A stretch of DNA of 64,000 nt from Alphaproteobacteria bacterium (GTDB lineage Bacteria > Myxococcota_A > UBA796 > GCA-2862545). A program made the translations under genes and the position numbers. The DNA lies in assembly GCA_020632925.1 (NCBI GenBank), contig JACKER010000007.1:244910-308909 (forward strand), given 5' to 3'. Of the stretch, positions 27,772-43,607 are shown piece by piece (positions within the stretch are counted from its first letter, which is position 1; each line of letters begins with the position of its first letter). Under the pieces are notes generated by a model. It was not told the DNA's origin and made no database searches. It saw nothing but the letters and a program-made list of their open reading frames with translations.

Positions 27772-29097
27772 TCAGGCGAAGATCGCGGGAACCTCGCCCA
27801 CGGGGCGCAGCGTGATCGAGGGCATCAGGGCAGGCCGCGGGCCCGTCGTCCGCAGCGCGCCGCGCTGCAGGATCGTCGCGAGCACGAGCGCGGCCTCCAT
27901 CAGCGCGAAGTGCTGACCGATGCACACGCGCGGCCCGCCGCCGAACGGGAAGAACGCGAACCGGGGGAGCCGGTCGTGCAACCCGTCGAGCCAGCGGGAC
28001 GGGTCGAATGCGAGCGGGTTCGGGAACCACCGCGGGTCGCGGTGCACCGCCCACTGGCTGATCAGCAGCTGTGCCCCCTTCGGGATGGTGTACTGCCGGA
28101 CGACCATGTCCTCCTGCGCCTCGCGGCCGATCGCCCACACCGGCGGGAGCAGGCGCATGGCCTCGTCGATGGTGGCCTGGACGCGTGGCAGCTTCGGCCA
28201 GTCGGCCACGGTGGCGGGGCGGTCGCCCAGCACCTCTCGGACCTCGGCGAGCAGGGGCTCGACCTCGACCGGGTTCTCACCGAGCAGCACCCAGGTCCAC
28301 GTCAGCGCGAGCGCCGTGGTCTCGTGGCCGGCGACGAAGGCCGTGACCGCCTCGTCCCGCAGCTCCACGTCCGACAGGCCCCCGTCGTCGTCGCGCGCCT
28401 GGATCAGGTGCGACAGCAGGTCGTCCCCGAGCCCCTTGCGGCGACGCGCCTCGATGAGGGCGTAGATCGTGCGGTCCAGCTGCTCGATCGCGGCGGAGGC
28501 CCGGCGGCGGCTGGGTGTCGGGATGGCCTTGGGCAGCAGGCGGCCCGGCCCCTGCGCCTCCTGCACGAACTCCGCCATCAGCACGTCGATCGTGTGGCCC
28601 ACCTCCGTGGTGTCGACGTCGAGGTCGGTGCCGAAGAGCGTGTCCAGCACGATGCGCTGGGTGACCAGCATCATCTGCTCGTGGACGTCGAGCGCCTGGT
28701 CGCGGTGCAGCCCGTCGAGCCACGAGCGCGTACAGGCGACCATGGTGTCCGCGTACTGCTCGACGTGCCGGCGGGTGAACGAAGGCGCGGCGAGCTTGCG
28801 GTGCCGCTTCCAGACGTCGTCTTCGGCGGTGACCAGCCCGTTGCCGAGCATCGGGCGGAGCAGGTCGTAGATGGCGTCCTTGTGGAGCTTCTTCGCGTCG
28901 CGGACGAGGATCTGCTCGATGTCGTCGGGATGCGAGAACATCCACAGGTCGTGCTCGAGGATGCGGAAGAAGGCGACGTCGCCGTGGTCGGTCGCCATCC
29001 GCTCGACGAAGCCCAGCGGATCGCGCGCGAACGGGACGAAGCTGCCCAGCAGCGGCCACTGGAACGGCCCTGGGACGTCGGGGCGGGGGCGCAGCAC
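27772..29097 (-). CDS. cytochrome P450
   Basis: It has the heme loop 'FGGGPRVCIG' and 'AGHETT'. The GTG start at 29097 has a GGAGG RBS. The remainder of the 993 aa ORF upstream is artefact. Confidence 0.85.
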   Translation of the reverse strand: MLRPRPDVPGPFQWPLLGSFVPFARDPLGFVERMATDHGDVAFFRILEHDLWMFSHPDDIEQILVRDAKKLHKDAIYDLLRPMLGNGLVTAEDDVWKRHRKLAAPSFTRRHVEQYADTMVACTRSWLDGLHRDQALDVHEQMMLVTQRIVLDTLFGTDLDVDTTEVGHTIDVLMAEFVQEAQGPGRLLPKAIPTPSRRRASAAIEQLDRTIYALIEARRRKGLGDDLLSHLIQARDDDGGLSDVELRDEAVTAFVAGHETTALALTWTWVLLGENPVEVEPLLAEVREVLGDRPATVADWPKLPRVQATIDEAMRLLPPVWAIGREAQEDMVVRQYTIPKGAQLLISQWAVHRDPRWFPNPLAFDPSRWLDGLHDRLPRFAFFPFGGGPRVCIGQHFALMEAALVLATILQRGALRTTGPRPALMPSITLRPVGEVPAIFA

Positions 29098-29111
29098 GGG
29101 GCCTCCGGAGG

Positions 29112-31076
29112 CTACTGCTGCGTGTTGAACCGCAGCGTGGTGGTCTTGCCCGGCTCGAACGTGTGGCGCTCCGTGAGGTCGAGCCCGGTGGTCGGGTTGG
29201 CGGCGCGGATCTCGTGCGGCCCGGCAGGCACCTGGAGCTCCTTGAACGGAGCGGTCTTGGGGAGCTTCTCGCCGTCGACGTAGATGTTCGCCCACCCGCC
29301 GCCGAGCAGCGTCACGGTGAGCAGGGGCGGGCTCGCGACGGGCTTGAGGTTCGAGGAGATCCGGTTCGTTCCGGGCTTCACGCTGCGGACGCCCGTCTTC
29401 GCCGTCTCGTACCCGTCGAGCCGCAGGTCGATGTTCACGGCGTCGCCGACCGACACCTTGCTCCAGGTGCAGGGCGTGGTGCAGATCTGCTTGCCGTCGA
29501 GGAGCACGGCCGCGCCCGAGGGGCTCGAGCGGATATCGAGCTCCGGGGGACCGGTCGGCTCGGGGGCCTGCGTGGGCACCGGCTCCGTCGGCTGCGGATC
29601 CGGCGTCGCCACCGGGATCGCGGCCAGCTGCTTGACCACCTTCACGATGCGGCCCTGCTCGACGTTGACCGACTCCTCGAGCGGCTCGTATCCCTCGGCC
29701 TCGAGGCGGACCGTGTACGTCCCGGGGGCCATGTCCTCCAGCATCACGCTGGTCCCGTTGCCCTTCTCGACGCCGTCCACGAGCACGCGCGCCGCGGGGA
29801 AGACCGTCACGTCCAGGATCGTCCGCTCGGCCGGCTGGGTCACGATCACGCCGTTGGGCGGTGCGTTGGGCGGCGGCTGGGTCCACACGAAGTAGACGAT
29901 GGCGGCGAGCGTGAGCCCGCCGAGCACGAAGAGCCCCACGCTCGCCCCGGCGATCCAGGGGACGACCGCCTGGACCGCGGTCTGCGTCACGTGCGACAGC
30001 GTCTCGCCCTGGGTTCCCTCCCAGTCCGCCGGCGGGAGGGTGTCCTTGAGCTTGCGGGCGAGCGTCTCGCCCTGCTGCAGCCGCGTCCGCTCCGACGCGA
30101 TCTCCTCGGCGAAGCTCTCCTGCAGGTACGCCCGCATCTTCGCCTTGAGGGTGTCCGAGGTCTCGGGGAAGAGGAAGTCGCGGAGGTCGGACTCGAGGTC
30201 GGCGGCCGATGCGTACCGGATGTCGCGGTCGCGGGTCAGCGCCTTCATGCAGATCGACGCCAGCCGCTCGGGCAGATCGGGGCGGAGCGTCTCGGGCGGC
30301 GTCACGTCCGCTTCGCGGACCTTGTTCAGCGTCGCCGTCTCGGAATCGGTCCGGAACAGGCGGCGCCCCGTCATCGTCTCCCACAGGATGATGCCGAGGC
30401 TGAAGAGGTCCGAGCGATGGTCGATCTCCGAGCCCTGGGCCTGCTCGGGCGACATGTACTCGAACTTGCCCTTGAGCATCCCGTCGCGCGTCTGGTACGC
30501 GTTCGACTCGGCCTTCGCGATGCCGAAGTCGGCGATCTTGACCTCGCCCTCGTACGACAGCAGCACGTTCGACGGGGAGATGTCGCGGTGGACGATGCCG
30601 AAGGGGTTCCCCTCGAGGTCGGTCTTCGCGTGGGCGTAGTGCAGGCCCTTGCAGACCTCGAGCGCGATGTACGCGCAGAGCTCCGGGGGCATGAACTGCT
30701 TGCGACGGGAACCGGCGCGCAGGAGGAAGCGGACGTCCTTGCCGTCCACGCACTCCATGACGATGAACCAGTTCTGCTGGATCTTCCCGAAGTCGTAGAT
30801 CCGGACGATGTTCGGGTGCTGCAGCTGCACGCTGACCCGCGCCTCGTCCTGGAACATCTCGACGAAGTCGGGGTTGTCGCCGATGTGCGGCAGGATCCGC
30901 TTGATGACGACCAGGTTCTCGAAGCCGCCGTGCGAGAAGGTCTTCGCCTTGAAGATCTCGGCCATGCCTCCGGCAGCGATCTTGTCGACGAGGAAATACT
31001 TCCCGAACGCGACGGGCTGGAACGCGGCGGGCTCGTTCGGTGCGCTGGAGCTGGTCTCTGACACGTCGGCCCCCAT
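29112..31076 (-). CDS. Ser/Thr protein kinase with a TM helix and three extracytoplasmic PEGA-like domains
   Basis: It carries 'HRDISPSNVLL' and 'DFGIA'. The PEGA-like region includes 'RVLVDGVEKGNGTSVMLEDMAPGTYTVRLEAEGYEP'. Confidence 0.85.
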   Translation of the reverse strand: MGADVSETSSSAPNEPAAFQPVAFGKYFLVDKIAAGGMAEIFKAKTFSHGGFENLVVIKRILPHIGDNPDFVEMFQDEARVSVQLQHPNIVRIYDFGKIQQNWFIVMECVDGKDVRFLLRAGSRRKQFMPPELCAYIALEVCKGLHYAHAKTDLEGNPFGIVHRDISPSNVLLSYEGEVKIADFGIAKAESNAYQTRDGMLKGKFEYMSPEQAQGSEIDHRSDLFSLGIILWETMTGRRLFRTDSETATLNKVREADVTPPETLRPDLPERLASICMKALTRDRDIRYASAADLESDLRDFLFPETSDTLKAKMRAYLQESFAEEIASERTRLQQGETLARKLKDTLPPADWEGTQGETLSHVTQTAVQAVVPWIAGASVGLFVLGGLTLAAIVYFVWTQPPPNAPPNGVIVTQPAERTILDVTVFPAARVLVDGVEKGNGTSVMLEDMAPGTYTVRLEAEGYEPLEESVNVEQGRIVKVVKQLAAIPVATPDPQPTEPVPTQAPEPTGPPELDIRSSPSGAAVLLDGKQICTTPCTWSKVSVGDAVNIDLRLDGYETAKTGVRSVKPGTNRISSNLKPVASPPLLTVTLLGGGWANIYVDGEKLPKTAPFKELQVPAGPHEIRAANPTTGLDLTERHTFEPGKTTTLRFNTQQ

Positions 31077-31092: not shown

Positions 31093-31938
31093 TCAGGCGG
31101 TAGGATCGGCGGGGCGATGGGGACCGGGCGTCGCGATGCGGCTCGACAGGTCGAAAGCGGCGCCGTTCGAGAGGATGTGCAGACGCACCCCGACCAGCTC
31201 GACGGGATCGCCGACCTCGGACAGTGCCATCGAGCTGTACGCGAGCTGACTCACGTCGACGACGGTGATCCCGCCGCTGCCCACCACGTGCGCGTGGTCG
31301 CGGGGGTCGATGAACGCGGCGGTGTCCTCGTCGAGCCCGAAGCCGACGCTGAACGGGTTGTACGACAGCGCCGTCAGCAGGCGGCCGAGCCGGTCCCGCT
31401 CGCGGAAGTGCTGGTCGATGATGATGCGGTTGGTCAGCCCCAGGCCGGGCGCGAGCGCCACCTGGCCCGCCCGTGGGGTGGCGCCCGAGGCGCCGTGCGC
31501 GATCATGTGCTCGCAGATGAAGGCAGCGCCGGCCGAGGTCCCGGCGACGTGCACGCCGCGGGCGTTCATCCGCCGGATCCGGGTGGCGATGGGCGTGCCG
31601 CCGAGGATGGTGGACAGGCGCAGCTGGTTCCCGCCGGTCAGGAAGATGCCGGTCACGCCCTCGAGCGCGTCCGACCAGCGCTCCTCCTCCGCGTGCTTGC
31701 GCTCGGCCACGTCGACGACGACGACATCGGCGATCCCGAGCTCCCGGAACACCCGCTTGTACGCGTCGCCCGTCGTCGGGAGCAGCGAGGCGGTGGGGAG
31801 GACCGCCACCCGCCCCTCGGAGCCGCCGCAGAGCTCGACGAAGCGGGCGAGGATGCGGCGATCGGAGATCTTGTCCTCGGCGCCGCCGATGGGGACGACG
31901 TAGCCGCGCGCGCCGGGAGAGGGTGCTGGGGAGGGCAT
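31093..31938 (-). CDS. cphB: cyanophycinase (S51 peptidase)
   Basis: It carries the catalytic-Ser motif 'GTSAGA' and 'GGNQ'. Confidence 0.85.
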   Translation of the reverse strand: MPSPAPSPGARGYVVPIGGAEDKISDRRILARFVELCGGSEGRVAVLPTASLLPTTGDAYKRVFRELGIADVVVVDVAERKHAEEERWSDALEGVTGIFLTGGNQLRLSTILGGTPIATRIRRMNARGVHVAGTSAGAAFICEHMIAHGASGATPRAGQVALAPGLGLTNRIIIDQHFRERDRLGRLLTALSYNPFSVGFGLDEDTAAFIDPRDHAHVVGSGGITVVDVSQLAYSSMALSEVGDPVELVGVRLHILSNGAAFDLSSRIATPGPHRPADPTA

Positions 31939-32031: not shown

Positions 32032-32799
32032 ATGTGGTGGTGGATGACCAGCGCCTGGGCGGAGTGCACCTTCCGCGCCGGGCTGTCCGAGGTGACGACC
32101 GCGCTCGATTCGGCCGAGCTGGCGTACGTCTCCCTCGATGTGGCGCTCTTCGAGAAGGCGACGACGGAGGTCGACTTCGTCGTGCCCTGCCTCGAGGCGC
32201 CGTTGGACGTGGCCACGGCCGCGCGGCTCCACCGGCTGCGCGGGCTCGGTCGGTTCGCCGAGGGCGACACCCGGGGCGCCGTGCTCGAGCTCAGCACGGC
32301 CCGCGTCCTCGAGCCGGCCTTCGTCTTCCCGCTCGAGATGCTCCCCGAGGGCTTCGAGCTGCGCGTGATCTACGAGGGCCTGCCCACCGAGGCCTCCGAC
32401 GAGGTCACGCGCCTGCCGCGTCCGCGTGGCGGGAGCCTCGTGCTGGACGGCGCCGTGGGCCGGGACCGCGCGGACGACCGCTCCGTGATCTTCCAGCGGG
32501 TGGAGGGCGACGCCATCGTCCAGACCGCGGTGCTCGCGCCCACCGATCCCGTGCCCTGGTACCCGGGCATCTCGAAGCGCAGGACGGTGCTCGCGGTGTC
32601 GAGCCTGGCGACGGCCGCGGTGGCGACGGGCTTCTACGCCGCGGCCCTGCAGTCCAACAGCCACCTGTCGGACGCGACGTCGGAGGAGGAGCTGTTGCGC
32701 CGCGCGGGCGTGACCAACGTGCTCGGCGGGATCGGACTCGGCCTGTACGGGCTGGCAGGGGTGGGCGGCGTGGCCGCGGTGGTGGTGGGGCGCCCGTGA
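32032..32799 (+). CDS. hypothetical protein with a C-terminal TM segment
   Basis: This is the last 255 aa of a 663 aa ORF, starting at 'MWWWMTSAWAE'. No family was recognised. Confidence 0.4.
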   Translation: MWWWMTSAWAECTFRAGLSEVTTALDSAELAYVSLDVALFEKATTEVDFVVPCLEAPLDVATAARLHRLRGLGRFAEGDTRGAVLELSTARVLEPAFVFPLEMLPEGFELRVIYEGLPTEASDEVTRLPRPRGGSLVLDGAVGRDRADDRSVIFQRVEGDAIVQTAVLAPTDPVPWYPGISKRRTVLAVSSLATAAVATGFYAAALQSNSHLSDATSEEELLRRAGVTNVLGGIGLGLYGLAGVGGVAAVVVGRP

Positions 32800-34454
32800 A
32801 GCGCCTGGCGCTCCTCGATCCCGGGACGCGCATCGATCGGTACGTGGTGCTCGACGTGATCGGCCAGGGCGGGATGGCCGTGGTGTACCGCGTGCGGCAC
32901 GAGAGCCTGGGCAGTGTGCACGCGCTCAAGGTCGTGGGTGTGCCGAGCCGGAGCATCATGCAGCGGCTGTTGGCCGAGGGGAAGGCGCAGGCCAGGGTCC
33001 GGCACCGCAACATCGTCGCCGTCCACGACGTGATCGAGGTCGACGGCTCGCCCGGGCTGGTGATGGAGTACGTCAACGGCCCCTCGCTCGACGGCCTCAT
33101 CCACCACGTGCAGCTGGACCTGGTCACCATCGATCGCATCGGTCGGGCCTTGCTGCGTGGGGTGCAAGCCGCCCACGACGCCGGGCTCATCCACCGCGAC
33201 CTCAAGCCCGCCAACGTCCTGGTTTCGCTCGAGGACGACGGGCTGATCCCGAAGATCGCGGACTTCGGGCTGGTGAAGGACGTGGCCGTGGGCGGCGACA
33301 CCCGCACCGGCTCGATGATGGGGACGCCGAACTACATGTCGCCGGAGCAGATCCGGGACACGAAGTCGGTCGACCACCGCACCGACCTGTTCGCGCTCGG
33401 CGCCATCCTGTACGAGCTGGTCACCCAGCGGCTGGCCTTCAGCGGCAACGACGTCCTCGACATCTTCAACCGCATCGACCGCGGGCAGTACACCCCCCTG
33501 GGCGAGCTGCGCCCCGACGTGCCGCAGCGGATGGTCGAGGCGATCGAGGGCGCGCTGGCGGTCGACCGGGACCGGCGTTGGCCGGGTTGCGCCCGGATGC
33601 TCGAGGTCTGGTGCGGCGACGTCCTGGACCAGCAGATCCCGGCGATCCAGCTGCCTGAGGACACGGTGGAGTGGATCCGCTCCAGCACGACGCTCGTGCC
33701 CGACAGCGTCCCGCCGACACCCGCCGGCACGGCCGTGCCACCCTCGGACGCCGCGGACTCCAACGCGCCGATGACCTGGGCACTGGACGGCGCGGTGAGC
33801 GAGGAGTCTCCGGCCCTGGATCTCGACGCACACGCGCGGCGGCCCGTCTGGCTGGTCGGGGCGGGTGTCGCTGGCCTGGCGCTGCTCTGCGCGGGCGGCC
33901 TGGGCCTCGGCCTGGTGGGGGGCGCGGGCTCCTGGTGGGCGAGCAGACCGCCAGATCCCGTCCCCGTCCCCGTCGCCGCTCCTCCTACGCCCGCTCCCGC
34001 TCCCGCTCCCGCTCCCGCTCCCGCTCCCGCTCCCGCTCCCGCTCCCGATCCCGCTCCCGCTCCCGCTCCCGATCCCGCTCCCGCGCCGACACCCACGCCC
34101 CCCAGCCCACACCCCACCCCAACACCCGTCCCCATCCCGACGCCGACGACGCCGGACCCCGCGCCCGTGCCGGTACCCGAGCCCGTCCCCGTCCCCGTCC
34201 CCGCGCCACCCTCCGCCACCACGACCGCCACGGTGGCCGTCCAGGGCGACGCGACCTCCGTGCTCCTGCGCGACGGCGCCGGCGGCTCGGTCGTCCCGGG
34301 TGGCTCCGTCCCGCCAGGGTCCTACACTGTCCTCGCGACCTTCCCCGGCGCCCAGGAACCCGTCCAGATCGCCACGGGTGTCGCCCTCGCGGCGGGTGAT
34401 CGCATCCTCATCGTTTGCCAGTCCCAGTTCCGTCGGTGCAACATCAGAAGATGA
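32796..34454 (+). CDS. Ser/Thr protein kinase with a TM helix, a Pro-Ala repeat linker and a C-terminal PEGA-like domain
   Basis: The GTG at 32796 overlaps the upstream stop as GTGA. It carries 'HRDLKPANVLV' and 'DFGLV'. Confidence 0.8.
   Translation: MKRLALLDPGTRIDRYVVLDVIGQGGMAVVYRVRHESLGSVHALKVVGVPSRSIMQRLLAEGKAQARVRHRNIVAVHDVIEVDGSPGLVMEYVNGPSLDGLIHHVQLDLVTIDRIGRALLRGVQAAHDAGLIHRDLKPANVLVSLEDDGLIPKIADFGLVKDVAVGGDTRTGSMMGTPNYMSPEQIRDTKSVDHRTDLFALGAILYELVTQRLAFSGNDVLDIFNRIDRGQYTPLGELRPDVPQRMVEAIEGALAVDRDRRWPGCARMLEVWCGDVLDQQIPAIQLPEDTVEWIRSSTTLVPDSVPPTPAGTAVPPSDAADSNAPMTWALDGAVSEESPALDLDAHARRPVWLVGAGVAGLALLCAGGLGLGLVGGAGSWWASRPPDPVPVPVAAPPTPAPAPAPAPAPAPAPAPAPDPAPAPAPDPAPAPTPTPPSPHPTPTPVPIPTPTTPDPAPVPVPEPVPVPVPAPPSATTTATVAVQGDATSVLLRDGAGGSVVPGGSVPPGSYTVLATFPGAQEPVQIATGVALAAGDRILIVCQSQFRRCNIRR
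33988..34086 (+). repeat. in-frame (cccgct)n hexanucleotide repeat encoding the PAPAPA linker
   Basis: About 15 tandem cccgct/cccgat units. Confidence 0.7.
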
Positions 34455-37342
34455 AGACCTTCCTCGATCCTCGCGTTCTGCTCACGCTCGTGCTGTTCGG
34501 CTGCCCGTTCGCCGGAGACGGACGACTGGATCGGGTGCGCGACGCGGATGGCGACAAGGACCCGGCGATCGCCTTCGGCGGGCACGACTGCGACGACACG
34601 AACCCGAACGTGAACTCCAACGCGGTCGAGGACTGGTCCAACGACATCGACGACGACTGCGACGGCAACGCGTTCGACCAGGACGGCGACGGGTATCAGC
34701 GCGACGTGGACTGCGACGACGAGGACGCTGCCGCGAACGTCGACCGCACCTGGTACGAGGATGGCGACGGCGACGGCTTCCGCGGCATGACCGGCGTGGT
34801 GTCCTGCCGCGCGCCCGGGGAGGGGTGGGTCGCCGAGCAGGGCACCGACTGCGACGACACCGACGCGCTCGCCTTCCCGCAGGCGCAGGAGACGCTGTGC
34901 GACGGGGTCGACAACGACTGCGACGCGGAGATCGACGAGTCCGACGACGTGACGTACACCTCGTGGTGGCCCGACCTCGACGGCGACCACTTCGGCGACC
35001 GCCGCGAGACCCCGGTGAGCACCTGCGACGGGGCGCCGGGTGTCGACTGGGCCGACAACCAGCTCGACTGCGACGACGCGGACGCGACCCGGAGCCCCGA
35101 CGCCGACGAGGTCTGCGACGACATCGACAACGACTGCGACGACGACGTGGACGAGCCCGGCGACGTCACCTGGACGACCTACTGGCTCGATCTGGACGGC
35201 GACGGCGCGGGGTACTCGGGGAACACCTGGTCCGCGCCCGGCGTGCCAGCGTTCACGGAGGATGCCGGCAGCCTGAGTTCCTGCGCCGAGTCCGCGCCAG
35301 CCGGGTACGCCGACAACCAGGACGACTGCGACGACAGCGATCCCGACGTGCAGTGGTTCACCTGGTACCCGGACGGCGACGGTGACGGCTACGGCGCCTC
35401 GGGGAGCCAGGGCGTCGACGGGTGCTTCGGTCCGGCCACGACGGTCGCCAACGACGACGACTGCGACGACGCGGACGCCGAGGAACACCCCGGAGCACGG
35501 TGGTACGACGACCTCGACGGGGACGGCTTCGGCGTGGCCGGCGCCCCCGTGACCAGCTGCACGCGCCCGGCCTCCAAGGTCGCCGACGCGACGGACTGCG
35601 ACGACGACGACCCCGACGTCCACCCCGGCGCCCCGGGCGAGCAGGTGCACGACGGGGTGGACACGAACTGCGACGACGCCACCGAGTTCGACGGCCCGGA
35701 CGCGAACGACCTGCCCGATCTGGCCTGCGGACCCACCATCGCGTACGACGTGGACCCGAGCACGCTCCAGCAGGCGCTCGACGCCGCGGGCACCTGCAAG
35801 GTGCTGATCATGCACGTCAGCGCCGACCAACACTTCTACGGACCGGTCACGCTGCCCGCCTCCGGGGAGATCGCGCTGATCGGGGCTCCGTTCGAGGACG
35901 TGGCGTTCGTGTCGCCGATCGGTGGTCAGGCCATCGTGGGACCGCCCGGCTCGTCGGTCGACCTGCTGATCGAGAAGGTCACGTTCCAGGGCTGGGACAC
36001 CGCGGTGGCCCTCAACGACGGCTCGCTGACGCTGTCCGAGGTCCTGGTGTCCGACGGCGAGGGGGTCACCCGGCGGACGGGCGGGGACGGCCTGGCCATC
36101 TACGACTCGGCCTTCACCGGCGTCGATCTGATCTACGACCCGAGCTGGACCGGCGGAGGCCGCTTCGCGGACGTGTCGGCCGAGCGGGTGGTCGCCGCGT
36201 TCGCCGTGGCGCCGCACGTGGTGTTGCTGGGGGGCACCAGCACGACGTCCTGGCGGGACCTCGTCGTCACGAACAGCGCCGCCATCGTCAGCGTCCTGCA
36301 GATCCCCGACCCGCTGTTCAGCGTCGCAGCACGGAACGTCGCGATCGACGGGTTGGTCGTCCGCGACTCGCTGGGTCGGGCGCTGGACGTGCCTTCCCGC
36401 AACGGCGACGACATCGTGCTGTGGAACGTCGCGCTCGACGGGAACATCTCCGTCGACCGCGGGCTGGTGGCGGTTCAGGGTCCCGGGTTGAGCCTCCAGG
36501 GCCCCACGCTCGACGTGGAGAACCTCGTCGCACGCGACAACACGATGGAGGTGTTCTCCGCGACCCAGAGCGACCTCCGCTCGCAGGCCATGTTCGACTT
36601 CACCGGCGTGGGCACCACGATGGAGGGCGTGACCCTCATCGGCAACGAGACGGGCGAGAGCTGGCTGCTCCAGGGCGAGGGCGCGGGATCCCACGTGGTG
36701 CTCGCGGGCACGGGCGACCGCGGGCTGCGGTTCGGCGGCACCCTCGACCACCTCACCTTCGTCGGGTTCGGCGCAGGCGTGGACGCCATCGACAGCTACC
36801 TCACGTCGGATCTGACGCTGCGCGACGCGATCGTGGACCAGTCCGGGACGGCGCCGCTGACCGCACGCCTCCACCTCGACCGGGTGATCATCGGGCCGGA
36901 CAGCGCGCTGACCTGTGGGCTGCTCGAGGCCTGCGTGGAGCGGACCGACCCGCTCTTCCTCCGGTACGACCCGCTCGCCCCCTCGGAGCTGTGGGACTTC
37001 CGCGTCCTGCCGCCGAGCCCCGCCATCGCGGGCGCGGGCAGCTGCCCGTTCACCGGCGCGTGCGATCTCGGCGCGTACACCCCGGCGAACGTGCCCGAGC
37101 AGTACGACGACGCCGACGGGGACGGCTTGTACGACACCTGGGAGGAGCAGTTCTTCGGCGACGCCGCGCTGTGTCTGCCGGGGCAGAACGCCGATGGCGA
37201 CGGCTTCACCAACGGCCAGGAGTTCTTCTCGGGTACGCTCCCGACCATGAGCGACTTCGATCTGGACGGGCTCCTCGACGGTCCGGCGGACACCCCGACC
37301 GAGGACTGGGACCAGGCGCCCTGGGATCCTGCACACGGATGA
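34451..37342 (+). CDS. large secreted lipoprotein with N-terminal Cys/Asp-rich putative metal-binding (MopE-like) repeats, a central parallel beta-helix-like region and a thrombospondin-type-3-like calcium-binding C-terminus
   Basis: The ATG overlaps the kinase stop as ATGA. The lipobox 'LVLFGCPFAG' is present. About 6 repeats of 'DCDDxD..P(G/A)A.E.CDG.DNDCD' follow. The C-terminus has 'DADGDGLYDTWEEQFFGD...NADGDGFTNGQEFF'. Confidence 0.65.
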   Translation: MKTFLDPRVLLTLVLFGCPFAGDGRLDRVRDADGDKDPAIAFGGHDCDDTNPNVNSNAVEDWSNDIDDDCDGNAFDQDGDGYQRDVDCDDEDAAANVDRTWYEDGDGDGFRGMTGVVSCRAPGEGWVAEQGTDCDDTDALAFPQAQETLCDGVDNDCDAEIDESDDVTYTSWWPDLDGDHFGDRRETPVSTCDGAPGVDWADNQLDCDDADATRSPDADEVCDDIDNDCDDDVDEPGDVTWTTYWLDLDGDGAGYSGNTWSAPGVPAFTEDAGSLSSCAESAPAGYADNQDDCDDSDPDVQWFTWYPDGDGDGYGASGSQGVDGCFGPATTVANDDDCDDADAEEHPGARWYDDLDGDGFGVAGAPVTSCTRPASKVADATDCDDDDPDVHPGAPGEQVHDGVDTNCDDATEFDGPDANDLPDLACGPTIAYDVDPSTLQQALDAAGTCKVLIMHVSADQHFYGPVTLPASGEIALIGAPFEDVAFVSPIGGQAIVGPPGSSVDLLIEKVTFQGWDTAVALNDGSLTLSEVLVSDGEGVTRRTGGDGLAIYDSAFTGVDLIYDPSWTGGGRFADVSAERVVAAFAVAPHVVLLGGTSTTSWRDLVVTNSAAIVSVLQIPDPLFSVAARNVAIDGLVVRDSLGRALDVPSRNGDDIVLWNVALDGNISVDRGLVAVQGPGLSLQGPTLDVENLVARDNTMEVFSATQSDLRSQAMFDFTGVGTTMEGVTLIGNETGESWLLQGEGAGSHVVLAGTGDRGLRFGGTLDHLTFVGFGAGVDAIDSYLTSDLTLRDAIVDQSGTAPLTARLHLDRVIIGPDSALTCGLLEACVERTDPLFLRYDPLAPSELWDFRVLPPSPAIAGAGSCPFTGACDLGAYTPANVPEQYDDADGDGLYDTWEEQFFGDAALCLPGQNADGDGFTNGQEFFSGTLPTMSDFDLDGLLDGPADTPTEDWDQAPWDPAHG

Positions 37343-39678
37343 GACCGCTCGTCGCCCTCTTCCTCGTCGGCTGCCCGTTCGTGGGCGAAGATCGGCTCGC
37401 CGGGATCCGGGACGCGGACGGCGACGGCGATCCGGCCGAGCAGTTCGGCGGCAACGACTGCGACGACGGGGACCCGCTCGTGAGCTCGTTGATGACGGAG
37501 GACTGGTCCAACGACATCGACGACGACTGCGATGGCAACGCGTTCGACCAGGACGGGGACGGCTACCTGCGAGGGACGGACTGCGACGACACGGATGCGA
37601 CCGTGAACGTCGAGCGGACCTGGTACGCGGACGAGGACGGCGACGGCGTCGTCGGCGCCACCCCCTACGTCGCGTGCATCCCCGAGGACGGCTCCTCGGC
37701 CGACCCTGGCCCCGACTGCGACGACCAGGACCCGACGGTCGCGCTGGTCACGCTGTTCCGGGACGCCGACGGCGACGGGTACGGCGACCCGGCGACCACG
37801 ACCACCGACCACTGCGAGCCCGTCGAGGGGTGGGTCCCGACCTCCGGGGACTGCGACGACACCGATCCGGAGCAGCGACCGGGGGCGTCGTGGCACGACG
37901 ACGCCGACGGGGACGGCTTCGGGGCGGAGCAGGTCGCGTCCGTCGGCTGCGAGCGTCCGACCGGGCGCATCACCGACGACAGCGACTGCGACGACCGGGA
38001 CGCGAGCGTTCACCCTGGCGCTTCCGGCGAGCAGCTGCACGACGGGGTCGACACCGACTGCGACGACGGCAGCGAGCTCCCCGAGCTGGCGTGTGGGCCG
38101 ACCCCGATCGACGTGTATCCGGACGACATCCAGTCGCGACTGTCGTCGGGTGGGGACTGCCAGGCCCTCGTCCTGCACGTCGACGCCGCTCGCCCCGTCT
38201 ACGGACCCATCGTGCTCCCGGACGACGCGCGCATCTCGCTCGTCGGGGCCCCCTTCGAGGCCGTCGCCTTCGGCACCCCGATCGGCGGTGTCGCCATCAG
38301 CGGCGCTCCCGCGTTGCTCCAGATCGAGAAGGCGACGTTCGTGGGGTGGGACACGGCGGTCGCCGTGGGCGGAGGGTCGGTCACGTTGTCCGAGGTGCTC
38401 GTCGACGCCGGGGAGGTCGTGCGGGCCGACGCCCTCGCGGACGAGCTCACGATCTACGACTCGGTCTTCTCGGGGGTCGACCTGGTCTACGATCCCGACT
38501 GGGCCGGACCGGGCACCTTCGACGACGTCCTGGTCGAGCGGTCCTTCGTGGCTTCCGCCGTCGCGCCCCACGCCGTGCTGGACGGCGGCCGGAGCTCGAC
38601 CACCTGGCGCGACCTGGTGATCGCGAACAGCGCCGCCACCGTCAGCCTCCTGACCGTGCCGGTCGGTCCTACGGGCCGCGCGATCACGATCGAGGATCTG
38701 TGGGTCCAGGACTCGCTCGGCCGGGCGCTCGAGGCCGAGCTGCGCGACCAGGACGCGCTCGCGCTGAACGACATCACGCTGGTGGGCAACATCTCGGTGG
38801 ATCGCGGGCTGGTGGCGGTCACCGGGTCCGGGGGCGCCACGCTCGGGGTCAGCGGGTTCAGCGCCCGCCAGAACACGATGGAGGTGTTCTCGGGCGTGCT
38901 GAGCGACCTGCGTGAGCAGGCGATGTTCGACTTCGGACCCGGCACGGGCACGCTGCAGGACGTGTGGCTGCTCGGGAACGTGACGGGGGAGAGCTGGCTG
39001 TTCCAGGGCAAGGGGACGGGCTCGAACCTGCTGTTCGCGGGGACCGGGGAGCGGGGCTTCCGGTTCAACGGCGCCATGGACCACGTGACCGTCGTCGGGT
39101 TCGGAGAGGGGGTGCCCTCCGTGGACGGGATCTCGCTCGGTCTCCGGCTCTCCGACGCCATCGTCGCCGACTTGGGCACGGACTTCCCCGAGGTGCTCGT
39201 CCGCATGGACCGCGTGATGATCGCGCCGGGGTCCGCGGTGACCTGCGGGCCCAACGACGCGGACTGCCTCACCGGCGTCGACCCGATGCTGCTCCGCTAC
39301 GACCGCGCCGCTCCTTCGGAGCTGTGGGACCTGCGGGTCGGCCCGGACAGCCCGGCCATCGCGCCACGCGCGACCTGCACGTTCGCGGGGACGGCCTGCG
39401 ACCTCGGGGGCCTCACGCCGGTGAACGCGCCGATCGCCTACGCGGACACGGACGGCGACGGCATGTACGACACCTGGGAGACGCAGTTCTTCGGCGACGT
39501 GGCGAGCTGTGGTCCCGCGCAGAACCCGGACGGCGACGGGTACACCAACGTCGAGGAGTTCGCTTCGGGGACCCTGCCGACCGCGGCGGACTTCGACCTG
39601 GACGGGCTGCCCGACGGCGCCCCGGACGGCGTCGGAGGGACCTGGGACGACGCGCCCTGGGACCCGTCGGGCGGCTGA
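37339..39678 (+). CDS. tandem paralog of the preceding lipoprotein with the same domain order
   Basis: The ATG overlaps the upstream stop as ATGA. The lipobox 'LFLVGCPFVG' is present. Repeat and C-terminal blocks are collinear ('DTDGDGMYDTWETQFFGD'). Confidence 0.65.
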   Translation: MRPLVALFLVGCPFVGEDRLAGIRDADGDGDPAEQFGGNDCDDGDPLVSSLMTEDWSNDIDDDCDGNAFDQDGDGYLRGTDCDDTDATVNVERTWYADEDGDGVVGATPYVACIPEDGSSADPGPDCDDQDPTVALVTLFRDADGDGYGDPATTTTDHCEPVEGWVPTSGDCDDTDPEQRPGASWHDDADGDGFGAEQVASVGCERPTGRITDDSDCDDRDASVHPGASGEQLHDGVDTDCDDGSELPELACGPTPIDVYPDDIQSRLSSGGDCQALVLHVDAARPVYGPIVLPDDARISLVGAPFEAVAFGTPIGGVAISGAPALLQIEKATFVGWDTAVAVGGGSVTLSEVLVDAGEVVRADALADELTIYDSVFSGVDLVYDPDWAGPGTFDDVLVERSFVASAVAPHAVLDGGRSSTTWRDLVIANSAATVSLLTVPVGPTGRAITIEDLWVQDSLGRALEAELRDQDALALNDITLVGNISVDRGLVAVTGSGGATLGVSGFSARQNTMEVFSGVLSDLREQAMFDFGPGTGTLQDVWLLGNVTGESWLFQGKGTGSNLLFAGTGERGFRFNGAMDHVTVVGFGEGVPSVDGISLGLRLSDAIVADLGTDFPEVLVRMDRVMIAPGSAVTCGPNDADCLTGVDPMLLRYDRAAPSELWDLRVGPDSPAIAPRATCTFAGTACDLGGLTPVNAPIAYADTDGDGMYDTWETQFFGDVASCGPAQNPDGDGYTNVEEFASGTLPTAADFDLDGLPDGAPDGVGGTWDDAPWDPSGG

Positions 39679-39684: not shown

Positions 39685-40803
39685 TCAGAGCACCCAACGG
39701 CCGTGCGCGAGGACGCGGCTGACCGAGAGGTCCTCGCCCAGCACGACCAGGTCGGCGTCCGCTCCAGCCGCGATCCGCCCCTTGCCCTCGAAGCGATAGA
39801 GCGCTGCCGGGTTCGTCGTCACCGGCGCGAGCGCGCGTTCGGGCGGGACCCCCGCGGCCAGCAGCCCGCGCACGACGCCCAGCAGGCCCTCGGCGTCGCC
39901 GACCTCCATGTGGAGCAGCTTCCCGTCGCGGTCGAACGTCGGCAGGCAGCCCCCGGCATCCGACGACAGCGTGATGCGCGCCGGATCCCGGCCCTCGGTC
40001 AGGTAGCGGAGCACCGCGGCCGTCGGGTCGACGGTGCCGTCGTCGTAGGGGGGAGGGAAGGCGCTCACGTCGATCCAGCCGCCGTCGTCGGACCAGGCCA
40101 GCGCCTCCTCCCACAGCCGGGGGTTGCGGTTCACGTGTGTCGGGTGGAACACCCGCCGGGGGAGCTCCGTCTCCGCTGCCGCCCGGCGCAGCAGCTCGAG
40201 CCCGCGCCGGCCGTCGCCCAGGTGCAGGTGGACCAGACCCGCCTTGCGGCTCATCATGCCCGCGACGTGGGCGTCCGCGGCGACGCGCAGCAGCTCGTCG
40301 TAGGTCGGCTGGCTCGAGCGGTGGTCGGAGATGGCGACCTCGCCGACCGCCACGATCGTGGGCACGTGGACGATGTCGCCGCGCACCGAGCCGGTCAGCG
40401 TCGGCGGGGGGACCTCGTACCCTCCGGTGTGGATCCACGCAGACAGGCCCATCGCGCGGACCGCGTGGGCGCAGGCCAACAGCTCGCCGATCGTGCGCGT
40501 CGTGCAGTCCGTGCCGAGCAGGCCGACCGCGGTGGTGACGCCGGACCGCGCCAGCGACGCCGGCACCAGCGGCGGGACGCGGGTCTCGGGGCCGCCCTCC
40601 CCACCACCGCCGGTCAGGTGGACGTGGAGGTCGACCAGACCCGGGATCAGCGTGCAGCCGTCGAGGTCGACGACGTCCACACCCCAGCCGGGCGGGGGCT
40701 CGGCGGGCACCCCCAGGGCGAGCACGCGCCCGCCCCCGACGAGGACCGTGGTCGTTCCCAGGTCCTCGGGGGCCCAAACGCGGGCGCCGCGCAGCAGCAG
40801 CAT
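39685..40803 (-). CDS. iadA: isoaspartyl dipeptidase (beta-aspartyl dipeptidase)
   Basis: It carries 'HVHLTGGGGEGGPETR', 'AISDHRS', 'PTHVNRN' and 'TLSSD'. These match my memory of E. coli IadA. The ATG overlaps the cphA stop as ATGA. Confidence 0.8.
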   Translation of the reverse strand: MLLLRGARVWAPEDLGTTTVLVGGGRVLALGVPAEPPPGWGVDVVDLDGCTLIPGLVDLHVHLTGGGGEGGPETRVPPLVPASLARSGVTTAVGLLGTDCTTRTIGELLACAHAVRAMGLSAWIHTGGYEVPPPTLTGSVRGDIVHVPTIVAVGEVAISDHRSSQPTYDELLRVAADAHVAGMMSRKAGLVHLHLGDGRRGLELLRRAAAETELPRRVFHPTHVNRNPRLWEEALAWSDDGGWIDVSAFPPPYDDGTVDPTAAVLRYLTEGRDPARITLSSDAGGCLPTFDRDGKLLHMEVGDAEGLLGVVRGLLAAGVPPERALAPVTTNPAALYRFEGKGRIAAGADADLVVLGEDLSVSRVLAHGRWVL

Positions 40804-43607
40804 CAGTCGTTCGGCTCGGGCGCGCGGGCCACCCGGACCCCACGCTCGTCCATCACCAGCGCGCCCTGCGGCAGCTGGACGACGACGGGCTCCGGAGCCG
40901 GCGGCGCCGGGCGCCAGGCGGGCTGCTCCACGACCTGGACCGCGCCGTCGTGCTCGCGGCCGTAGTAGATGATCTGCTTCCAGCAGCGCGTGAGCTGATC
41001 ACCGAAGACCAGCAGCAGATCGCCCTCTCGGCAGCTGCGCAGCCCCATGTCGAGCGCCTCGATCTCGTCGGGGACGATGTGGACCGCCGCGGGCTGGACC
41101 CCGGCCTCGAGCAGCGCGTCGCGCATCAGCTTCGCCACCGCGCCGCGGTCGCGGCCGCGCGCGTCGTCGTCCTCCTTGCAGATGAACAGGTCGAACGAGC
41201 AGGACGCCCGCGCGGCGATGCGCTGGATGTCCTCGTCGCGGCGGTCGCCGGGGGCGGTGAGCAGGACCACGCGCTTCGTGCGCATCCCGGTCCCGTCCGA
41301 CAGGCGGTCGACCAGGTTGCACATCGCCTCGATCGCGTGCGGGTTGTGGCCGTAGTCGAGGATGACCTTGAAGCCGAGCTCGTCGTAGACGTTCATCCGG
41401 CCCGGCGCCTGGAAGAAGCTGTTGTCGAAGGTCCGGAGCCCGTGGCGGATGTCGTCCAGCTTCACGCCCATCGCCCAGGCCATCGCGGCCGCGAACATCG
41501 CGTTCTGGACGTTGTGGATGGCCTTGCCCTCCATCGTCGCCGGGATGAGGTGGGTCCACAGCAGCGGCATGTGCGACATCCGGTCGTAGATGGTGATCAT
41601 CTGACCGTTGACCCCACCCTCGAGCCCCACGGCCAGCCCGCCCTGCCGGATGTGCTCGCGCACCAGCTCGTGCTGGGGGTTCATCGTCACGTACGCGACG
41701 CGCCGGGCCTCGCTGTGGTCCGCCATCGCGAGGCAGAGCGGGTCGTCGGCGTTGAGCACCACGCAGTCGGACGCGACCTCGATCGGGATGCGCTTGACCT
41801 CGGCGAGCTGCTCGAGCGTGTGGATGCCGCCCAACCCGAGGTGGTCGCCGGCGACGTTGAGGCAGCAGGCCACGTCGGGGTGCCTGTACCCCATGCCGGC
41901 GCGGAGCAGGCCGCCGCGCGCGGTCTCGAGCACGGCGACCGTGACCTTCGGGTCGCGGAGCACCATCTGGGCGCTGATCGGTCCGGTCATGTCGCCCGGG
42001 ACCGTGCGGTTGCCGTCGACGTAGACGCCGTCGGTCGTGGTCAGGCCGACGACCGCGCCGGCCATCTTGTGGATGTGCGCGAGCATGCGGCTCGTCGTCG
42101 TCTTGCCGTTGGTCCCCGTCACGGCGGCGATGGGGATGCGCGTCGGCGTGCCCGGGGGGAACAGCATCTCCATGACGGCGCCCGCCACGTCGCGGGGGTG
42201 ACCCTCCGAGGGCGCGACGTGCATCCGGAAGCCGGGTGCGGCGTTGACCTCGCAGATCCCGCCGCCGACATCGGTCCAGGAGCGCGTGATGTCCGGCGTC
42301 AGGAAGTCCACGCCGCACACGTCCAGCCCCACGGCGGCCGTCGCCCGCTCCGCCATCTCGCGGTTGTCGGGGTGGATCATGTCCGTCACGTCGATCGCGG
42401 TGCCGCCCGTGGACAGGTTCGCCGTCGACCGGAGGTAGAAGACCTCTCCGGCGGTCAGCACGCTCTCCGCCGTCTTGCCGGCGGCCGCGAGCAGCCGCTG
42501 GGCCTGTCCGTCGAGCTCGAGGCGCGTCAGCACCTTCTCGTGCCCGATGCCGCGCCGGGGATCGAGGTTCACGAGGTCCACGAGCTGCGCGACCGTGTGC
42601 TGTCCGTCGCCGACCACGTGCCCCGGCACGCGCTTGCTCGCGGCCACGAGCCGCCCGTCCACCACCAGCAGCCGGTGGTCGAAGCCCTCCACGCACTGCT
42701 CGACCAGCACGACCCGCGAGTGCTCGCGCGCGACCGCGAAGGCGTCGGACACGGCCTGCTCGCCCTCGATCCCGATGGTGATGCCCCGACCGTGGTTGGC
42801 GTCGAGCGGCTTGACCACGACCTTGCCGCCGATGCGCTGCCAGGCGCGGACGGCCTCCTCGCCGGTACGGACCTGGATCTGCTTGGGCACGGGCAGCCCC
42901 ATGTCCGCGAGGATCCGGTTCGTGAGGTTCTTGTCCGACGCGATCTCGACGCCGATGTTCTTGGTCTCGCTCGTCACCGTTGCCCAGATGCGCTTCTGGC
43001 GGCACCCGTGGCCGAACTGGACGAGGGACGCGTCACCGATGCGCAGCCAGGGGATGTCCCGAGCCTCGGCCGCCCGCACCAGCGAGGCCGTGGAGGGCCC
43101 GAACGCGCGGCTCTGCGTCTCGAGGATGAGATCCTCGAGCTCCATCGCGAAGTCGAAGCCGGGCTCCGGCGGCGCGTCGGGGTGCAGCGCCTCGGGGATG
43201 ATGTGGTGGAGGAGTCGGAGCGCCAGCTCGCCCGCCGCCATGCCCACCCAGGGGTCCTCGTACTCGTAGACGACGTGGTACTGCCCGACCTCGCCCGACC
43301 CCCGGGTCTTGCCGAAGGTCACGGGGAAGCCCGCGAGGTGCTGGAGCTCGATCGCGACGTGCTCGAGCACGTGGCCCATCCAGGTGCCGCCGTCCTCCCG
43401 CAGCCGCCGGACGAAGCCGCCGGGCTCGCCGTAGGAGCAGCCGTGGTCGCCCAGGCCGGGCAGCAGCTGCAGGAGCTGATCCACGAAGCCCGGGATCGCC
43501 GCGGACGGGTGGTCCTCGAGCGGGCCGAGGTCGAGCAGGAAGCGGATCACGCGGAAGTGCGCGTACAGGTTCGGGCCGAGGTAGGTACGGCGCTCGAGGA
43601 TGCGCAT
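40803..43607 (-). CDS. cphA: cyanophycin synthetase
   Basis: It has an ATP-grasp domain followed by a Mur-ligase domain ('VTGTNGKTTT'). Confidence 0.9.
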   Translation of the reverse strand: MRILERRTYLGPNLYAHFRVIRFLLDLGPLEDHPSAAIPGFVDQLLQLLPGLGDHGCSYGEPGGFVRRLREDGGTWMGHVLEHVAIELQHLAGFPVTFGKTRGSGEVGQYHVVYEYEDPWVGMAAGELALRLLHHIIPEALHPDAPPEPGFDFAMELEDLILETQSRAFGPSTASLVRAAEARDIPWLRIGDASLVQFGHGCRQKRIWATVTSETKNIGVEIASDKNLTNRILADMGLPVPKQIQVRTGEEAVRAWQRIGGKVVVKPLDANHGRGITIGIEGEQAVSDAFAVAREHSRVVLVEQCVEGFDHRLLVVDGRLVAASKRVPGHVVGDGQHTVAQLVDLVNLDPRRGIGHEKVLTRLELDGQAQRLLAAAGKTAESVLTAGEVFYLRSTANLSTGGTAIDVTDMIHPDNREMAERATAAVGLDVCGVDFLTPDITRSWTDVGGGICEVNAAPGFRMHVAPSEGHPRDVAGAVMEMLFPPGTPTRIPIAAVTGTNGKTTTSRMLAHIHKMAGAVVGLTTTDGVYVDGNRTVPGDMTGPISAQMVLRDPKVTVAVLETARGGLLRAGMGYRHPDVACCLNVAGDHLGLGGIHTLEQLAEVKRIPIEVASDCVVLNADDPLCLAMADHSEARRVAYVTMNPQHELVREHIRQGGLAVGLEGGVNGQMITIYDRMSHMPLLWTHLIPATMEGKAIHNVQNAMFAAAMAWAMGVKLDDIRHGLRTFDNSFFQAPGRMNVYDELGFKVILDYGHNPHAIEAMCNLVDRLSDGTGMRTKRVVLLTAPGDRRDEDIQRIAARASCSFDLFICKEDDDARGRDRGAVAKLMRDALLEAGVQPAAVHIVPDEIEALDMGLRSCREGDLLLVFGDQLTRCWKQIIYYGREHDGAVQVVEQPAWRPAPPAPEPVVVQLPQGALVMDERGVRVARAPEPND

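What the first reader, a model, noticed from the sequence alone, without database searches (positions are those of the whole stretch)
27772..43607. Split cyanophycin metabolism locus brackets a kinase/lipoprotein operon, and cphB is co-operonic with a PEGA-domain kinase and a P450
cphA (cyanophycin synthetase, 40803-43607) is translationally coupled (ATGA) to iadA (isoaspartyl dipeptidase, 39685-40803). IadA completes breakdown of the beta-Asp-Arg dipeptides that cyanophycinase releases. Cyanophycinase cphB (31093-31938) sits 8 kb away on the same strand. It lies 16 nt upstream of a PEGA-domain Ser/Thr kinase, which lies 14 nt upstream of a cytochrome P450.
Between the two halves, on the opposite strand, is an operon of a hypothetical protein, a Ser/Thr kinase and two giant lipoproteins. 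I do not know of kinase or P450 partnering with cyanophycin degradation as a described arrangement. It suggests cyanophycin turnover is wired into a signalling or secondary-metabolic programme.
Basis: partly seen in the sequence, partly recalled or inferred. Interest (0 to 1): 0.6.

Follow-up and report, generated by a model that had tools for sequence, protein, structure and literature searches.

The report
Cyanophycin genes with clade-specific kinase–P450 operon
An uncultured myxobacterium carries an ordinary, complete set of cyanophycin (nitrogen-reserve polymer) genes, and in one small group of relatives the degrading enzyme's gene sits in an apparent operon with a membrane kinase and a P450, with no evidence beyond that adjacency that the three work together.

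Summary
cphA, iadA and cphB all pass NCBIfam equivalog cut-offs, and the 16-nt and 14-nt junctions are as stated. The opposite-strand operon (hypothetical, kinase, two lipoproteins) is real and joined by 4-nt overlaps. One detail is wrong: the cphA/iadA overlap is 1 nt (TGATG), not ATGA.

The cphB→PEGA-kinase→P450 trio is conserved in all 6 related lineages whose context could be read (cphB 79-96% identical), while both flanks differ among them. Those lineages form one clade in the cphB, kinase and P450 trees, so this is one evolutionary event.

Sister lineages with equally similar cphB lack the trio. None of 80 other species has this kinase or a P450 within the up to 10 kb fetched on each side of cphB; 56 of 69 have cphA directly downstream instead. 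Orthologues of the kinase and of the P450 in sister lineages sit in unrelated contexts. The 7.7-kb "bracketed" operon is shared only with the closest relative, as far as that 7-kb contig reaches.

Verdict: a normal cyanophycin pathway whose cluster was loosened by rearrangement, plus a young, probably co-transcribed operon. Wiring into signalling remains speculation. Interest is low to moderate.

The parts
40803..43607 (-). cphA: cyanophycin synthetase CphA1 (934 aa)
   Evidence: TIGR02068 scores 1108 bits against a cut-off of 850. It has the Cyanophycin_syn N domain, an ATP-grasp domain and Mur-ligase M and C domains. It aligns to solved CphA1 7LGN over residues 1-915 at 982 bits.
39685..40803 (-). 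iadA: isoaspartyl (beta-aspartyl) dipeptidase (372 aa); its start overlaps the cphA stop by 1 nt (TGATG)
   Evidence: TIGR01975 scores 359.8 against a cut-off of 331.25. All nine solved relatives found are isoaspartyl dipeptidases; the best is 8DQN at 379 bits. The junction was read.
37339..39678 (+). Lipoprotein 2 (779 aa), with MopE-type metal-binding motifs and lipobox LVGC; paralogue of lipoprotein 1
   Evidence: PF11617 hit. It is 48-51% identical to lipoprotein 1. Its ATG overlaps the lipoprotein 1 stop as ATGA.
34451..37342 (+). Lipoprotein 1 (963 aa), with four MopE-type motifs and lipobox LFGC
   Evidence: PF11617, 77 bits, 4 stretches. Its ATG at 34451 overlaps the stop of the second kinase (translation).
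32796..34454 (+). Second Ser/Thr kinase (552 aa): kinase domain, Pro-rich linker, C-terminal domain
   Evidence: PF00069, 153 bits. Only 31% identical to the PEGA kinase. Its GTG start overlaps the stop of the hypothetical gene.
32032..32799 (+). Hypothetical protein (255 aa): helical-hairpin N-terminal part, small beta domain, two long C-terminal helices; divergent from cphB across 93 nt
   Evidence: No Pfam family in the correct frame. 1416 representative clusters match at E<=1e-3. AlphaFold model has pLDDT 94.5. No significant match among solved structures. Among the fetched loci it was found only in L100 and L001.
31093..31938 (-). cphB: intracellular-type cyanophycinase (281 aa), first gene of the trio
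   Evidence: TIGR02069 scores 262.8 against a cut-off of 126.6. It aligns to 3EN0 at 196 bits. The Ser-His-Glu positions (S135, H177, E204) are invariant in alignment A1.
29112..31076 (-). Receptor-type Ser/Thr kinase (654 aa): cytoplasmic kinase domain, one hydrophobic span (about aa 370-397), PEGA repeats outside the membrane; starts 16 nt after cphB
   Evidence: PF00069, 134 bits, and PF08308 PEGA, 95 bits. The K, HRD, DFG and SPE motifs are readable in the translation.
27772..29097 (-). Cytochrome P450 (441 aa); starts 14 nt after the kinase, GTG start preceded by GGAGG
   Evidence: PF00067, 262 bits. The FGGGPRVCIG haem-ligand motif is present. Best solved relatives are 7WZL, CYP170A1 (3DBG) and CYP97A3 (6J94).

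Best explanation
This is a complete, conventional cyanophycin pathway in an uncultured Myxococcota bacterium. CphA1 makes the polymer, CphB cuts it to beta-Asp-Arg, and IadA splits the dipeptide. These roles follow from what is established for the three families.

The once-contiguous gene cluster has been loosened by rearrangement.
- In the wider relatives the order is iadA-cphB-cphA.
- In this group it is cphA-iadA-[0 to 4 variable genes]-cphB.
- In the window the variable slot holds a 7.7-kb opposite-strand operon: hypothetical protein, kinase, two MopE-motif lipoproteins. Of the relatives examined, only the closest one (L100, a 7-kb contig that ends inside the second kinase gene) shows it.

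Separately, in the ancestor of one shallow clade, cphB became the first gene of a three-gene unit. The other two genes are a transmembrane PEGA Ser/Thr kinase and a P450. Both have orthologues that are unlinked to cphB and to each other in sister lineages.

The three genes are most likely co-transcribed from the cphB promoter. This is inferred from the short gaps or overlaps and from the unit staying intact while both flanks changed. Co-expression is the only link the data support. A biochemical link between kinase or P450 and cyanophycin breakdown is not shown, and I judge it unlikely.
For: Enzyme identities:
- All three cyanophycin enzymes pass equivalog cut-offs.
- Each matches solved family members over its full length; the cyanophycinase catalytic residues are conserved.

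The trio in relatives:
- It is present in the window, L100, P0003, P0004, L098/L099 and L002/L003.
- cphB-kinase gaps range from 16 nt in the window to about 56 nt. The kinase and P450 either overlap by 4 nt or are 13-14 nt apart.
- Upstream neighbours differ: the hypothetical protein plus second kinase, a 134-aa ORF, iadA, or MacB/FtsX.
- Downstream neighbours differ: a VgrG-like gene, an extra 317-aa gene, TPMT, or carotenoid genes.

Single origin:
- Trio-bearing cphB sequences form one clade.
- The P450 tree and the kinase tree also place the trio copies in one clade.

Absence outside the clade:
- L084 (80% identity) has cphB alone.
- L086 (79%) has cphA-iadA-cphB followed by an MFS transporter.
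- L004 (75%) has none of it.
- None of 80 species loci has this kinase or a P450 within the up to 10 kb fetched on each side of cphB. cphA lies directly downstream in 56 of 69 and iadA directly upstream in 46 of 74.

Orthologues elsewhere:
- Kinase orthologues in L087-L090, L092 and L094 follow a small Cys-rich lipoprotein. L087-L089, which have 8-kb flanks, contain no cphB or P450.
- P450 orthologues in L101-L103 stand alone.

The insert: the genes of the 7.7-kb insert (hypothetical protein, second kinase) were found only in L100 and L001.
Against: - Both flanks broke repeatedly while the two internal junctions never did. That is mild evidence that selection keeps the three genes together, which could reflect a functional link rather than shared expression alone.
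- An unrelated kinase lies 16 nt downstream of cphB in L085.
- Other unrelated kinases lie divergently next to cphB in L011 and L015, and in the window itself (the second kinase, one gene away).
- No transcript data exist, so an internal promoter inside cphB cannot be excluded.
- The trees are neighbour-joining without bootstrap support.
Confidence: 0.7

Rival explanations
1. One reading: the PEGA receptor kinase senses something outside the cell and controls cyanophycin breakdown. It would do so by phosphorylating CphB or a regulator, so that reserve mobilisation is tied to a signalling programme.
For: - Operon-like spacing.
- The trio is intact in 6 of 6 clade members despite reshuffled flanks.
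- The kinase has all catalytic motifs.
- Unrelated kinases also neighbour cphB in L085, L011 and L015.
Against: - One evolutionary origin only.
- Absent from sister lineages and from 80 species.
- Kinase orthologues elsewhere pair with a small lipoprotein, not with cphB.
- Kinases are dense in these genomes: roughly 0.03 per kb, or about 3.5% of genes, once the kinases used to select the loci are removed from the count. By my rough estimate, about four kinase-cphB adjacencies among roughly 26 Myxococcota contexts is not clearly above chance.
- The literature search found no link between cyanophycinase and such kinases.
Confidence: 0.13
2. The P450 belongs to terpenoid or carotenoid metabolism. 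It, perhaps with the kinase, merely rides on the cphB transcript and has no role in cyanophycin metabolism.
For: - In L098 the P450 is followed after 98 nt by lycopene cyclase, a polyprenyl synthase and a phytoene-synthase-like gene.
- L003 has the same cluster one gene further on.
- The closest solved or curated relatives include the terpene oxidase CYP170A1 and the carotenoid hydroxylase CYP97A3.
Against: - The window has no carotenoid genes.
- P0003 and P0004 have a TPMT-type methyltransferase after the P450 instead.
- Stand-alone P450 orthologues in L101-L103 are not next to carotenoid genes.
- The equivalog scores are far below cut-off (238 against 700).
Confidence: 0.15

Closest known systems
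Clustered cphA1-cyanophycinase-iadA loci, such as that of Leucothrix mucor (Sharon et al. 2023, PMC10206079)
   Same: The same three enzyme families are present. cphA and iadA are adjacent and coupled. The best solved match of the window IadA is 8DQN, an isoaspartyl dipeptidase; I believe this is the L. mucor enzyme, from memory. In 36 of 64 informative related loci iadA, cphB and cphA are directly adjacent.
   Different: Here cphB is 7.7 kb from iadA, beyond the 5-kb clustering criterion of that paper. The order is cphA-iadA...cphB rather than iadA-cphB-cphA. cphB is followed by a kinase and a P450 instead of cphA. The paper does not mention kinases or P450s.
Cyanobacterial cphB-cphA pair
   Same: A CphB-type intracellular cyanophycinase with the Ser-His-Glu triad (alignment to 3EN0) and a three-domain CphA1.
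   Different: The two genes are not adjacent, the host is a myxobacterium, and a dedicated-looking iadA is coupled to cphA.
Myxobacterial Hanks-type receptor Ser/Thr kinases
   Same: A kinase domain with intact catalytic motifs, a single membrane span and an extracytoplasmic repeat domain. The window has three full kinase domains in about 55 genes.
   Different: No characterised member is known to me (from memory) that is co-operonic with cyanophycinase. Its orthologues elsewhere pair with a small Cys-rich lipoprotein.
CYP170A1 (albaflavenone monooxygenase, 3DBG) and CYP97A3 (carotenoid hydroxylase, 6J94)
   Same: Same P450 fold and class, with full-length alignments at 167 and 150 bits.
   Different: Far below equivalog cut-offs (238 against 700 for the albaflavenone model). 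There is no terpene synthase or redox partner in the locus. The substrate is unknown.

Membership tests
Cyanophycin synthetase CphA1 | Score at or above the curated equivalog cut-off (TIGR02068) | tested here: met
   1108 bits against 850
Cyanophycin synthetase CphA1 | N domain, ATP-grasp domain and Mur-ligase-like domain in one chain | tested here: met
   PF18921, ATP-grasp families, PF08245 and PF02875. Residues 1-915 align to 7LGN.
Cyanophycin synthetase CphA1 | Makes cyanophycin from Asp, Arg and ATP | not testable with these tools
   Needs an enzyme assay or granule staining.
Cyanophycinase CphB (peptidase S51) | Score at or above the curated equivalog cut-off (TIGR02069) | tested here: met
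   262.8 bits against 126.6
Cyanophycinase CphB (peptidase S51) | Catalytic Ser-His-Glu residues conserved | tested here: met
   The GTSAGA Ser, DQHF His and DED Glu align with 3EN0. S135, H177 and E204 are invariant in alignment A1. Which residues form the triad is recalled from the 3EN0 literature.
Cyanophycinase CphB (peptidase S51) | Intracellular type, with no signal peptide (unlike CphE) | tested here: inconclusive
   The N-terminus MPSPAPSPGARGYVVPIGG has no hydrophobic stretch by eye. No signal-peptide predictor was run.
Isoaspartyl dipeptidase IadA | Score at or above the curated equivalog cut-off (TIGR01975) | tested here: met
   359.8 bits against 331.25. All solved relatives found are isoaspartyl dipeptidases.
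Clustered cyanophycin locus (criterion of PMC10206079: genes no more than 5 kb apart) | cphA1, cyanophycinase and iadA all within 5-kb gaps | tested here: not met
   cphA and iadA overlap, but cphB is 7.7 kb from iadA.
Hanks-type Ser/Thr kinase with PEGA domain | Pkinase domain above cut-off with catalytic Lys, HRD and DFG, plus PEGA repeats | tested here: met
   PF00069, 133.7 bits, and PF08308, 94.8 bits. Motifs were read in the translation.
Cytochrome P450 | P450 domain above cut-off with the Cys haem-ligand motif | tested here: met
   PF00067, 262 bits. FGGGPRVCIG is present.
Named P450 equivalogs (albaflavenone monooxygenase, pentalenene oxygenase, ApyO) | Score at or above the equivalog cut-off | tested here: not met
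   238 against 700, 232 against 800 and 177 against 525.
Functionally coupled gene set, as judged by conserved neighbourhood | The same neighbours recur in several independent lineages | tested here: not met
   The trio occurs in one clade only. It is absent from sister lineages and from 80 species.

The most novel reading that the evidence does not exclude
In this clade of uncultured Myxococcota, cyanophycin mobilisation is placed under a co-transcribed transmembrane Ser/Thr kinase, which phosphorylates CphB or a partner in response to an extracellular cue. The P450 acts on a product or signal of the same programme. This would be the first case of cyanophycin turnover controlled by a eukaryote-like kinase.
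Probability: 0.1. Interest if true: 0.55.

Novelty: new variant of a known kind. Interest (0 to 1): 0.25.

Why it matters
Cyanophycin metabolism has not been studied in myxobacteria, as far as the paper search shows. This locus, with the 80-species scan, shows that a full synthesis-and-degradation pathway is common there.

The kinase-P450 operon would matter only if the kinase really controls the enzyme. That would be a new way of regulating a nitrogen reserve. As it stands, the main value is a worked example: tight gene spacing together with conservation inside one young clade does not establish a functional link in genomes crowded with kinases.

Tried and rejected
- **Wrong frame for the hypothetical gene (my error).** It was first queried as 32034-32799. 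This wasted the last homologue search. The correct gene is 32032-32799. Pfam was rerun in the right frame and still found no family.
- **Promoter and terminator scan.** Nothing inside the trio and nothing useful elsewhere; the scan is uninformative for this GC content.
- **Rfam on 26000-46000.** No match.
- **PADLOC.** Only generic kinase-domain hits (PD-T4-6, mad6) on both kinases and nothing on their neighbours. A defence system was rejected.
- **Carotenoid genes in the window.** None.
- **Small Cys-rich lipoprotein partner of the kinase orthologues.** Absent from the window and from the trio loci.
- **Fold search of the hypothetical protein against solved structures.** No significant match. 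The afdb50 library was unavailable.
- **Missing DNA.** None was available for the P0003 and P0004 loci, so their 134-aa ORF upstream of cphB could not be compared.
- **Paper search for 7WZL.** Nothing found.
- **Chance estimate for a kinase next to cphB.** It is not clearly above background. The trio is a single event, so no meaningful probability can be attached to it.
Full report
**What is in the sequence**

The window is about 72% G+C, so raw ORF lists are crowded with false frames.

On the minus strand, in reading order:
- cphA, 40803-43607
- iadA, 39685-40803
- cphB, 31093-31938
- a Ser/Thr kinase, 29112-31076
- a P450, 27772-29097

Between iadA and cphB, on the plus strand:
- a hypothetical gene, 32032-32799
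- a second kinase, 32796-34454
- two lipoprotein genes, 34451-37342 and 37339-39678

The junctions are as stated: 16 nt from cphB to the kinase, and 14 nt from the kinase to the P450, whose GTG start follows a GGAGG. One detail is wrong. The cphA stop and iadA start overlap by a single base (TGATG), not by ATGA. The 4-nt overlaps are in the plus-strand operon.

**Are the gene calls sound?**

Yes. Each cyanophycin enzyme exceeds its curated equivalog cut-off:

| Gene | Model | Score | Cut-off |
|---|---|---|---|
| cphA | TIGR02068 | 1108 | 850 |
| cphB | TIGR02069 | 262.8 | 126.6 |
| iadA | TIGR01975 | 359.8 | 331.25 |

- CphA has the N domain, an ATP-grasp domain and Mur-ligase domains. It aligns over residues 1-915 to solved CphA1 7LGN.
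- CphB aligns with Synechocystis cyanophycinase 3EN0. Its catalytic Ser, His and Glu are conserved and are invariant across 24 homologues.
- IadA's best solved relative is the isoaspartyl dipeptidase 8DQN.
- The kinase has a Pkinase domain and PEGA repeats. It has readable Lys, HRD, DFG and SPE motifs and one hydrophobic span between the two parts. It looks like an active receptor-type kinase.
- The P450 scores 262 bits on PF00067 and has the Cys-ligand motif. It falls far below every named equivalog. Its nearest solved relatives are 7WZL, CYP170A1 and the carotenoid hydroxylase CYP97A3.

**Source organism**

The closest cphB homologues come from metagenome-assembled Myxococcota genomes. The nearest locus, L100 from GCA_020430605.1, is 88% identical in DNA over 5.6 kb.

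**Is the cphB-kinase-P450 trio conserved?**

Within one clade, yes. Six distinct lineages with cphB 79-96% identical all show cphB, then a roughly 650-aa PEGA kinase, then a roughly 440-aa P450 on one strand. They are the window, L100, P0003, P0004, L098/L099 and L002/L003.

In four of them the kinase and P450 overlap by 4 nt.

The neighbours on both sides differ:
- Upstream: the hypothetical gene plus second kinase, a 134-aa ORF, iadA, or MacB/FtsX genes.
- Downstream: a VgrG-like gene, an extra 317-aa gene, a TPMT methyltransferase, or a carotenoid cluster.

I count at least five flank changes and none at the two internal junctions. This is mild evidence that the unit is kept together, as expected for an operon.

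**How deep is that conservation?**

It is shallow and has a single origin. In a neighbour-joining tree of cphB, all trio-bearing sequences form one clade. The P450 tree and the kinase tree also put the trio copies in a single clade.

Sister lineages with similarly close cphB lack the trio:

| Locus | cphB identity | Context |
|---|---|---|
| L084 | 80% | cphB alone |
| L086 | 79% | cphA-iadA-cphB, then an MFS transporter |
| L004 | 75% | nothing relevant |
| L085 | 75% | a different 295-aa kinase (27% identical), no P450 |

A scan of one genome per species returned 80 loci with cphB 56-75% identical, from Myxococcota, Gemmatimonadota and Gammaproteobacteria among others. None has this kinase or a P450 within the up to 10 kb fetched on each side of cphB. 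Instead, cphA lies directly downstream of cphB in 56 of 69 informative loci. iadA lies directly upstream in 46 of 74. Both hold in 36 of 64.

**Where are the kinase and P450 in other lineages?**

Kinase orthologues were found in L087-L090, L092 and L094. Their kinase domains are 62-75% identical. The PEGA part, where it could be compared, is 36-45% identical, against 43% inside the trio clade.
- L087-L089, which carry 8-kb flanks, contain no cphB or P450.
- L090, L092 and L094 are short contigs with no cphB upstream.
- All six are instead preceded by a conserved small Cys-rich lipoprotein, which is absent from the window and the trio loci.

P450 orthologues at 58-62% identity are nearly as close as trio members are to each other. 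They stand alone in L101, L102 and L103. L101 and L103 share their own neighbourhood of DUF4328, shikimate dehydrogenase and FHA proteins.

So the three genes were brought together once, from separate places.

**The "split" and the "bracketed" operon**

In this group the order is cphA, iadA, a variable slot, then cphB. The slot holds:
- no genes in L002 (there other genes separate cphA from iadA instead)
- one gene in L086
- two in P0003
- three in P0004
- four in the window

The window's four genes are translationally coupled. The hypothetical gene and the second kinase were found only in L100 and L001. Those contigs end inside the second kinase gene, so the lipoproteins could not be checked there.

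The split is therefore a rearrangement-prone site, not an architecture. By the 5-kb criterion of Sharon et al., cphA and iadA count as clustered and cphB does not. That paper reports that cphA1 and cyanophycinase cluster in 81% of genomes having both, and it does not mention kinases or P450s.

**Chance**

Kinases are dense here. The window has three full kinase domains in about 55 genes. Relatives' loci carry roughly 0.03 per kb, or about 3.5% of genes, once the kinases used to select those loci are removed from the count (my calculation).

Unrelated kinases neighbour cphB in L085, L011 and L015. By my rough estimate, about four adjacencies among roughly 26 Myxococcota contexts, against about two expected, is not clearly above chance. 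The trio is a single event noticed after the fact, so no meaningful probability can be attached to it.

**Mechanism**

*Shown:*
- the enzyme identities
- the layout
- conservation limited to one clade
- unlinked orthologues elsewhere

*Inferred:*
- The three trio genes share a transcript from the 93-nt divergent region upstream of cphB.
- CphA1 and IadA are co-translated.

*Not shown:* any action of the kinase or P450 on cyanophycin metabolism.

A side lead is that the P450 may serve terpenoid or carotenoid chemistry. Carotenoid genes follow it in L098 and L003, and CYP97A3 is among its closest solved relatives. The window has no such genes, and stand-alone orthologues are not near any.

**Other checks**

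- Rfam found nothing in 26000-46000.
- The promoter and terminator scan found nothing inside the trio.
- PADLOC gave only generic kinase-domain hits.
- The hypothetical protein belongs to a large family with no Pfam model, with 1416 representative clusters. It folds with high confidence (pLDDT 94.5) into a helical-hairpin part, a small beta domain and two long helices. It has no significant solved match.
- I first queried this gene in the wrong frame and corrected it.

**Verdict**

This is a normal cyanophycin pathway with a loosened cluster, plus a young, clade-specific, probably co-transcribed cphB-kinase-P450 operon of unknown significance.

Noticed in passing
L087 7626-7916; L088 7635-7937; L089 7647-7967; L090 76-393; L092 about 490-763; L094 about 375-668: Orthologues of the PEGA kinase in sister lineages are each preceded by a small (about 95-110 aa) Cys-rich lipoprotein with six conserved cysteines. 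It is absent from the window and from all trio loci. This looks like the kinase's older conserved partner.
   Followed up: partly
window 32032-32799 (+): The hypothetical protein belongs to a large family with no Pfam model. 1416 representative clusters match at E<=1e-3, at about 255-280 aa, with C53, R68 and Q155 invariant. The AlphaFold model is confident (pLDDT 94.5) and has no significant match among solved structures.
   Followed up: partly
L098 11661-15861; L003 9352-14879: In two trio lineages the P450 is followed by a carotenoid cluster: lycopene cyclase, polyprenyl synthase, a phytoene-synthase-like gene, a B12-binding MerR regulator, CrtC and a glycosyltransferase. The window has no such genes.
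   Followed up: partly
window 26385-27745: A small VgrG-like protein (297 aa, Phage_base_V OB domain) lies beside a DUF6864 protein. Its last 360 nt are 97.5% identical to L100, whereas the rest of the shared region is 88% identical. L100 has an extra 317-aa gene between the P450 and this gene.
   Followed up: no
window 34451-39678 (+): The two large lipoproteins are paralogues (48-51% identical). Both carry MopE-type putative metal-binding motifs. MopE-motif proteins also appear near cphB or the P450 in P0003, P0004 and L102.
   Followed up: no
L085 9597-10484; L011 410-1243; L015 3193-4044: Unrelated Ser/Thr kinases neighbour cphB in other Myxococcota: 16 nt downstream in L085, and divergently upstream in L011 and L015. 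By a rough estimate this is not clearly above the background kinase density.
   Followed up: partly
window 15761-19102 (-) and 56-2539 (+): A third full kinase, fused to WD40 repeats, lies 10 kb from the trio. The truncated ORF at the window start may also be a kinase, judging from its C-terminal lobe motif. This underlines how kinase-rich the genome is.
   Followed up: no
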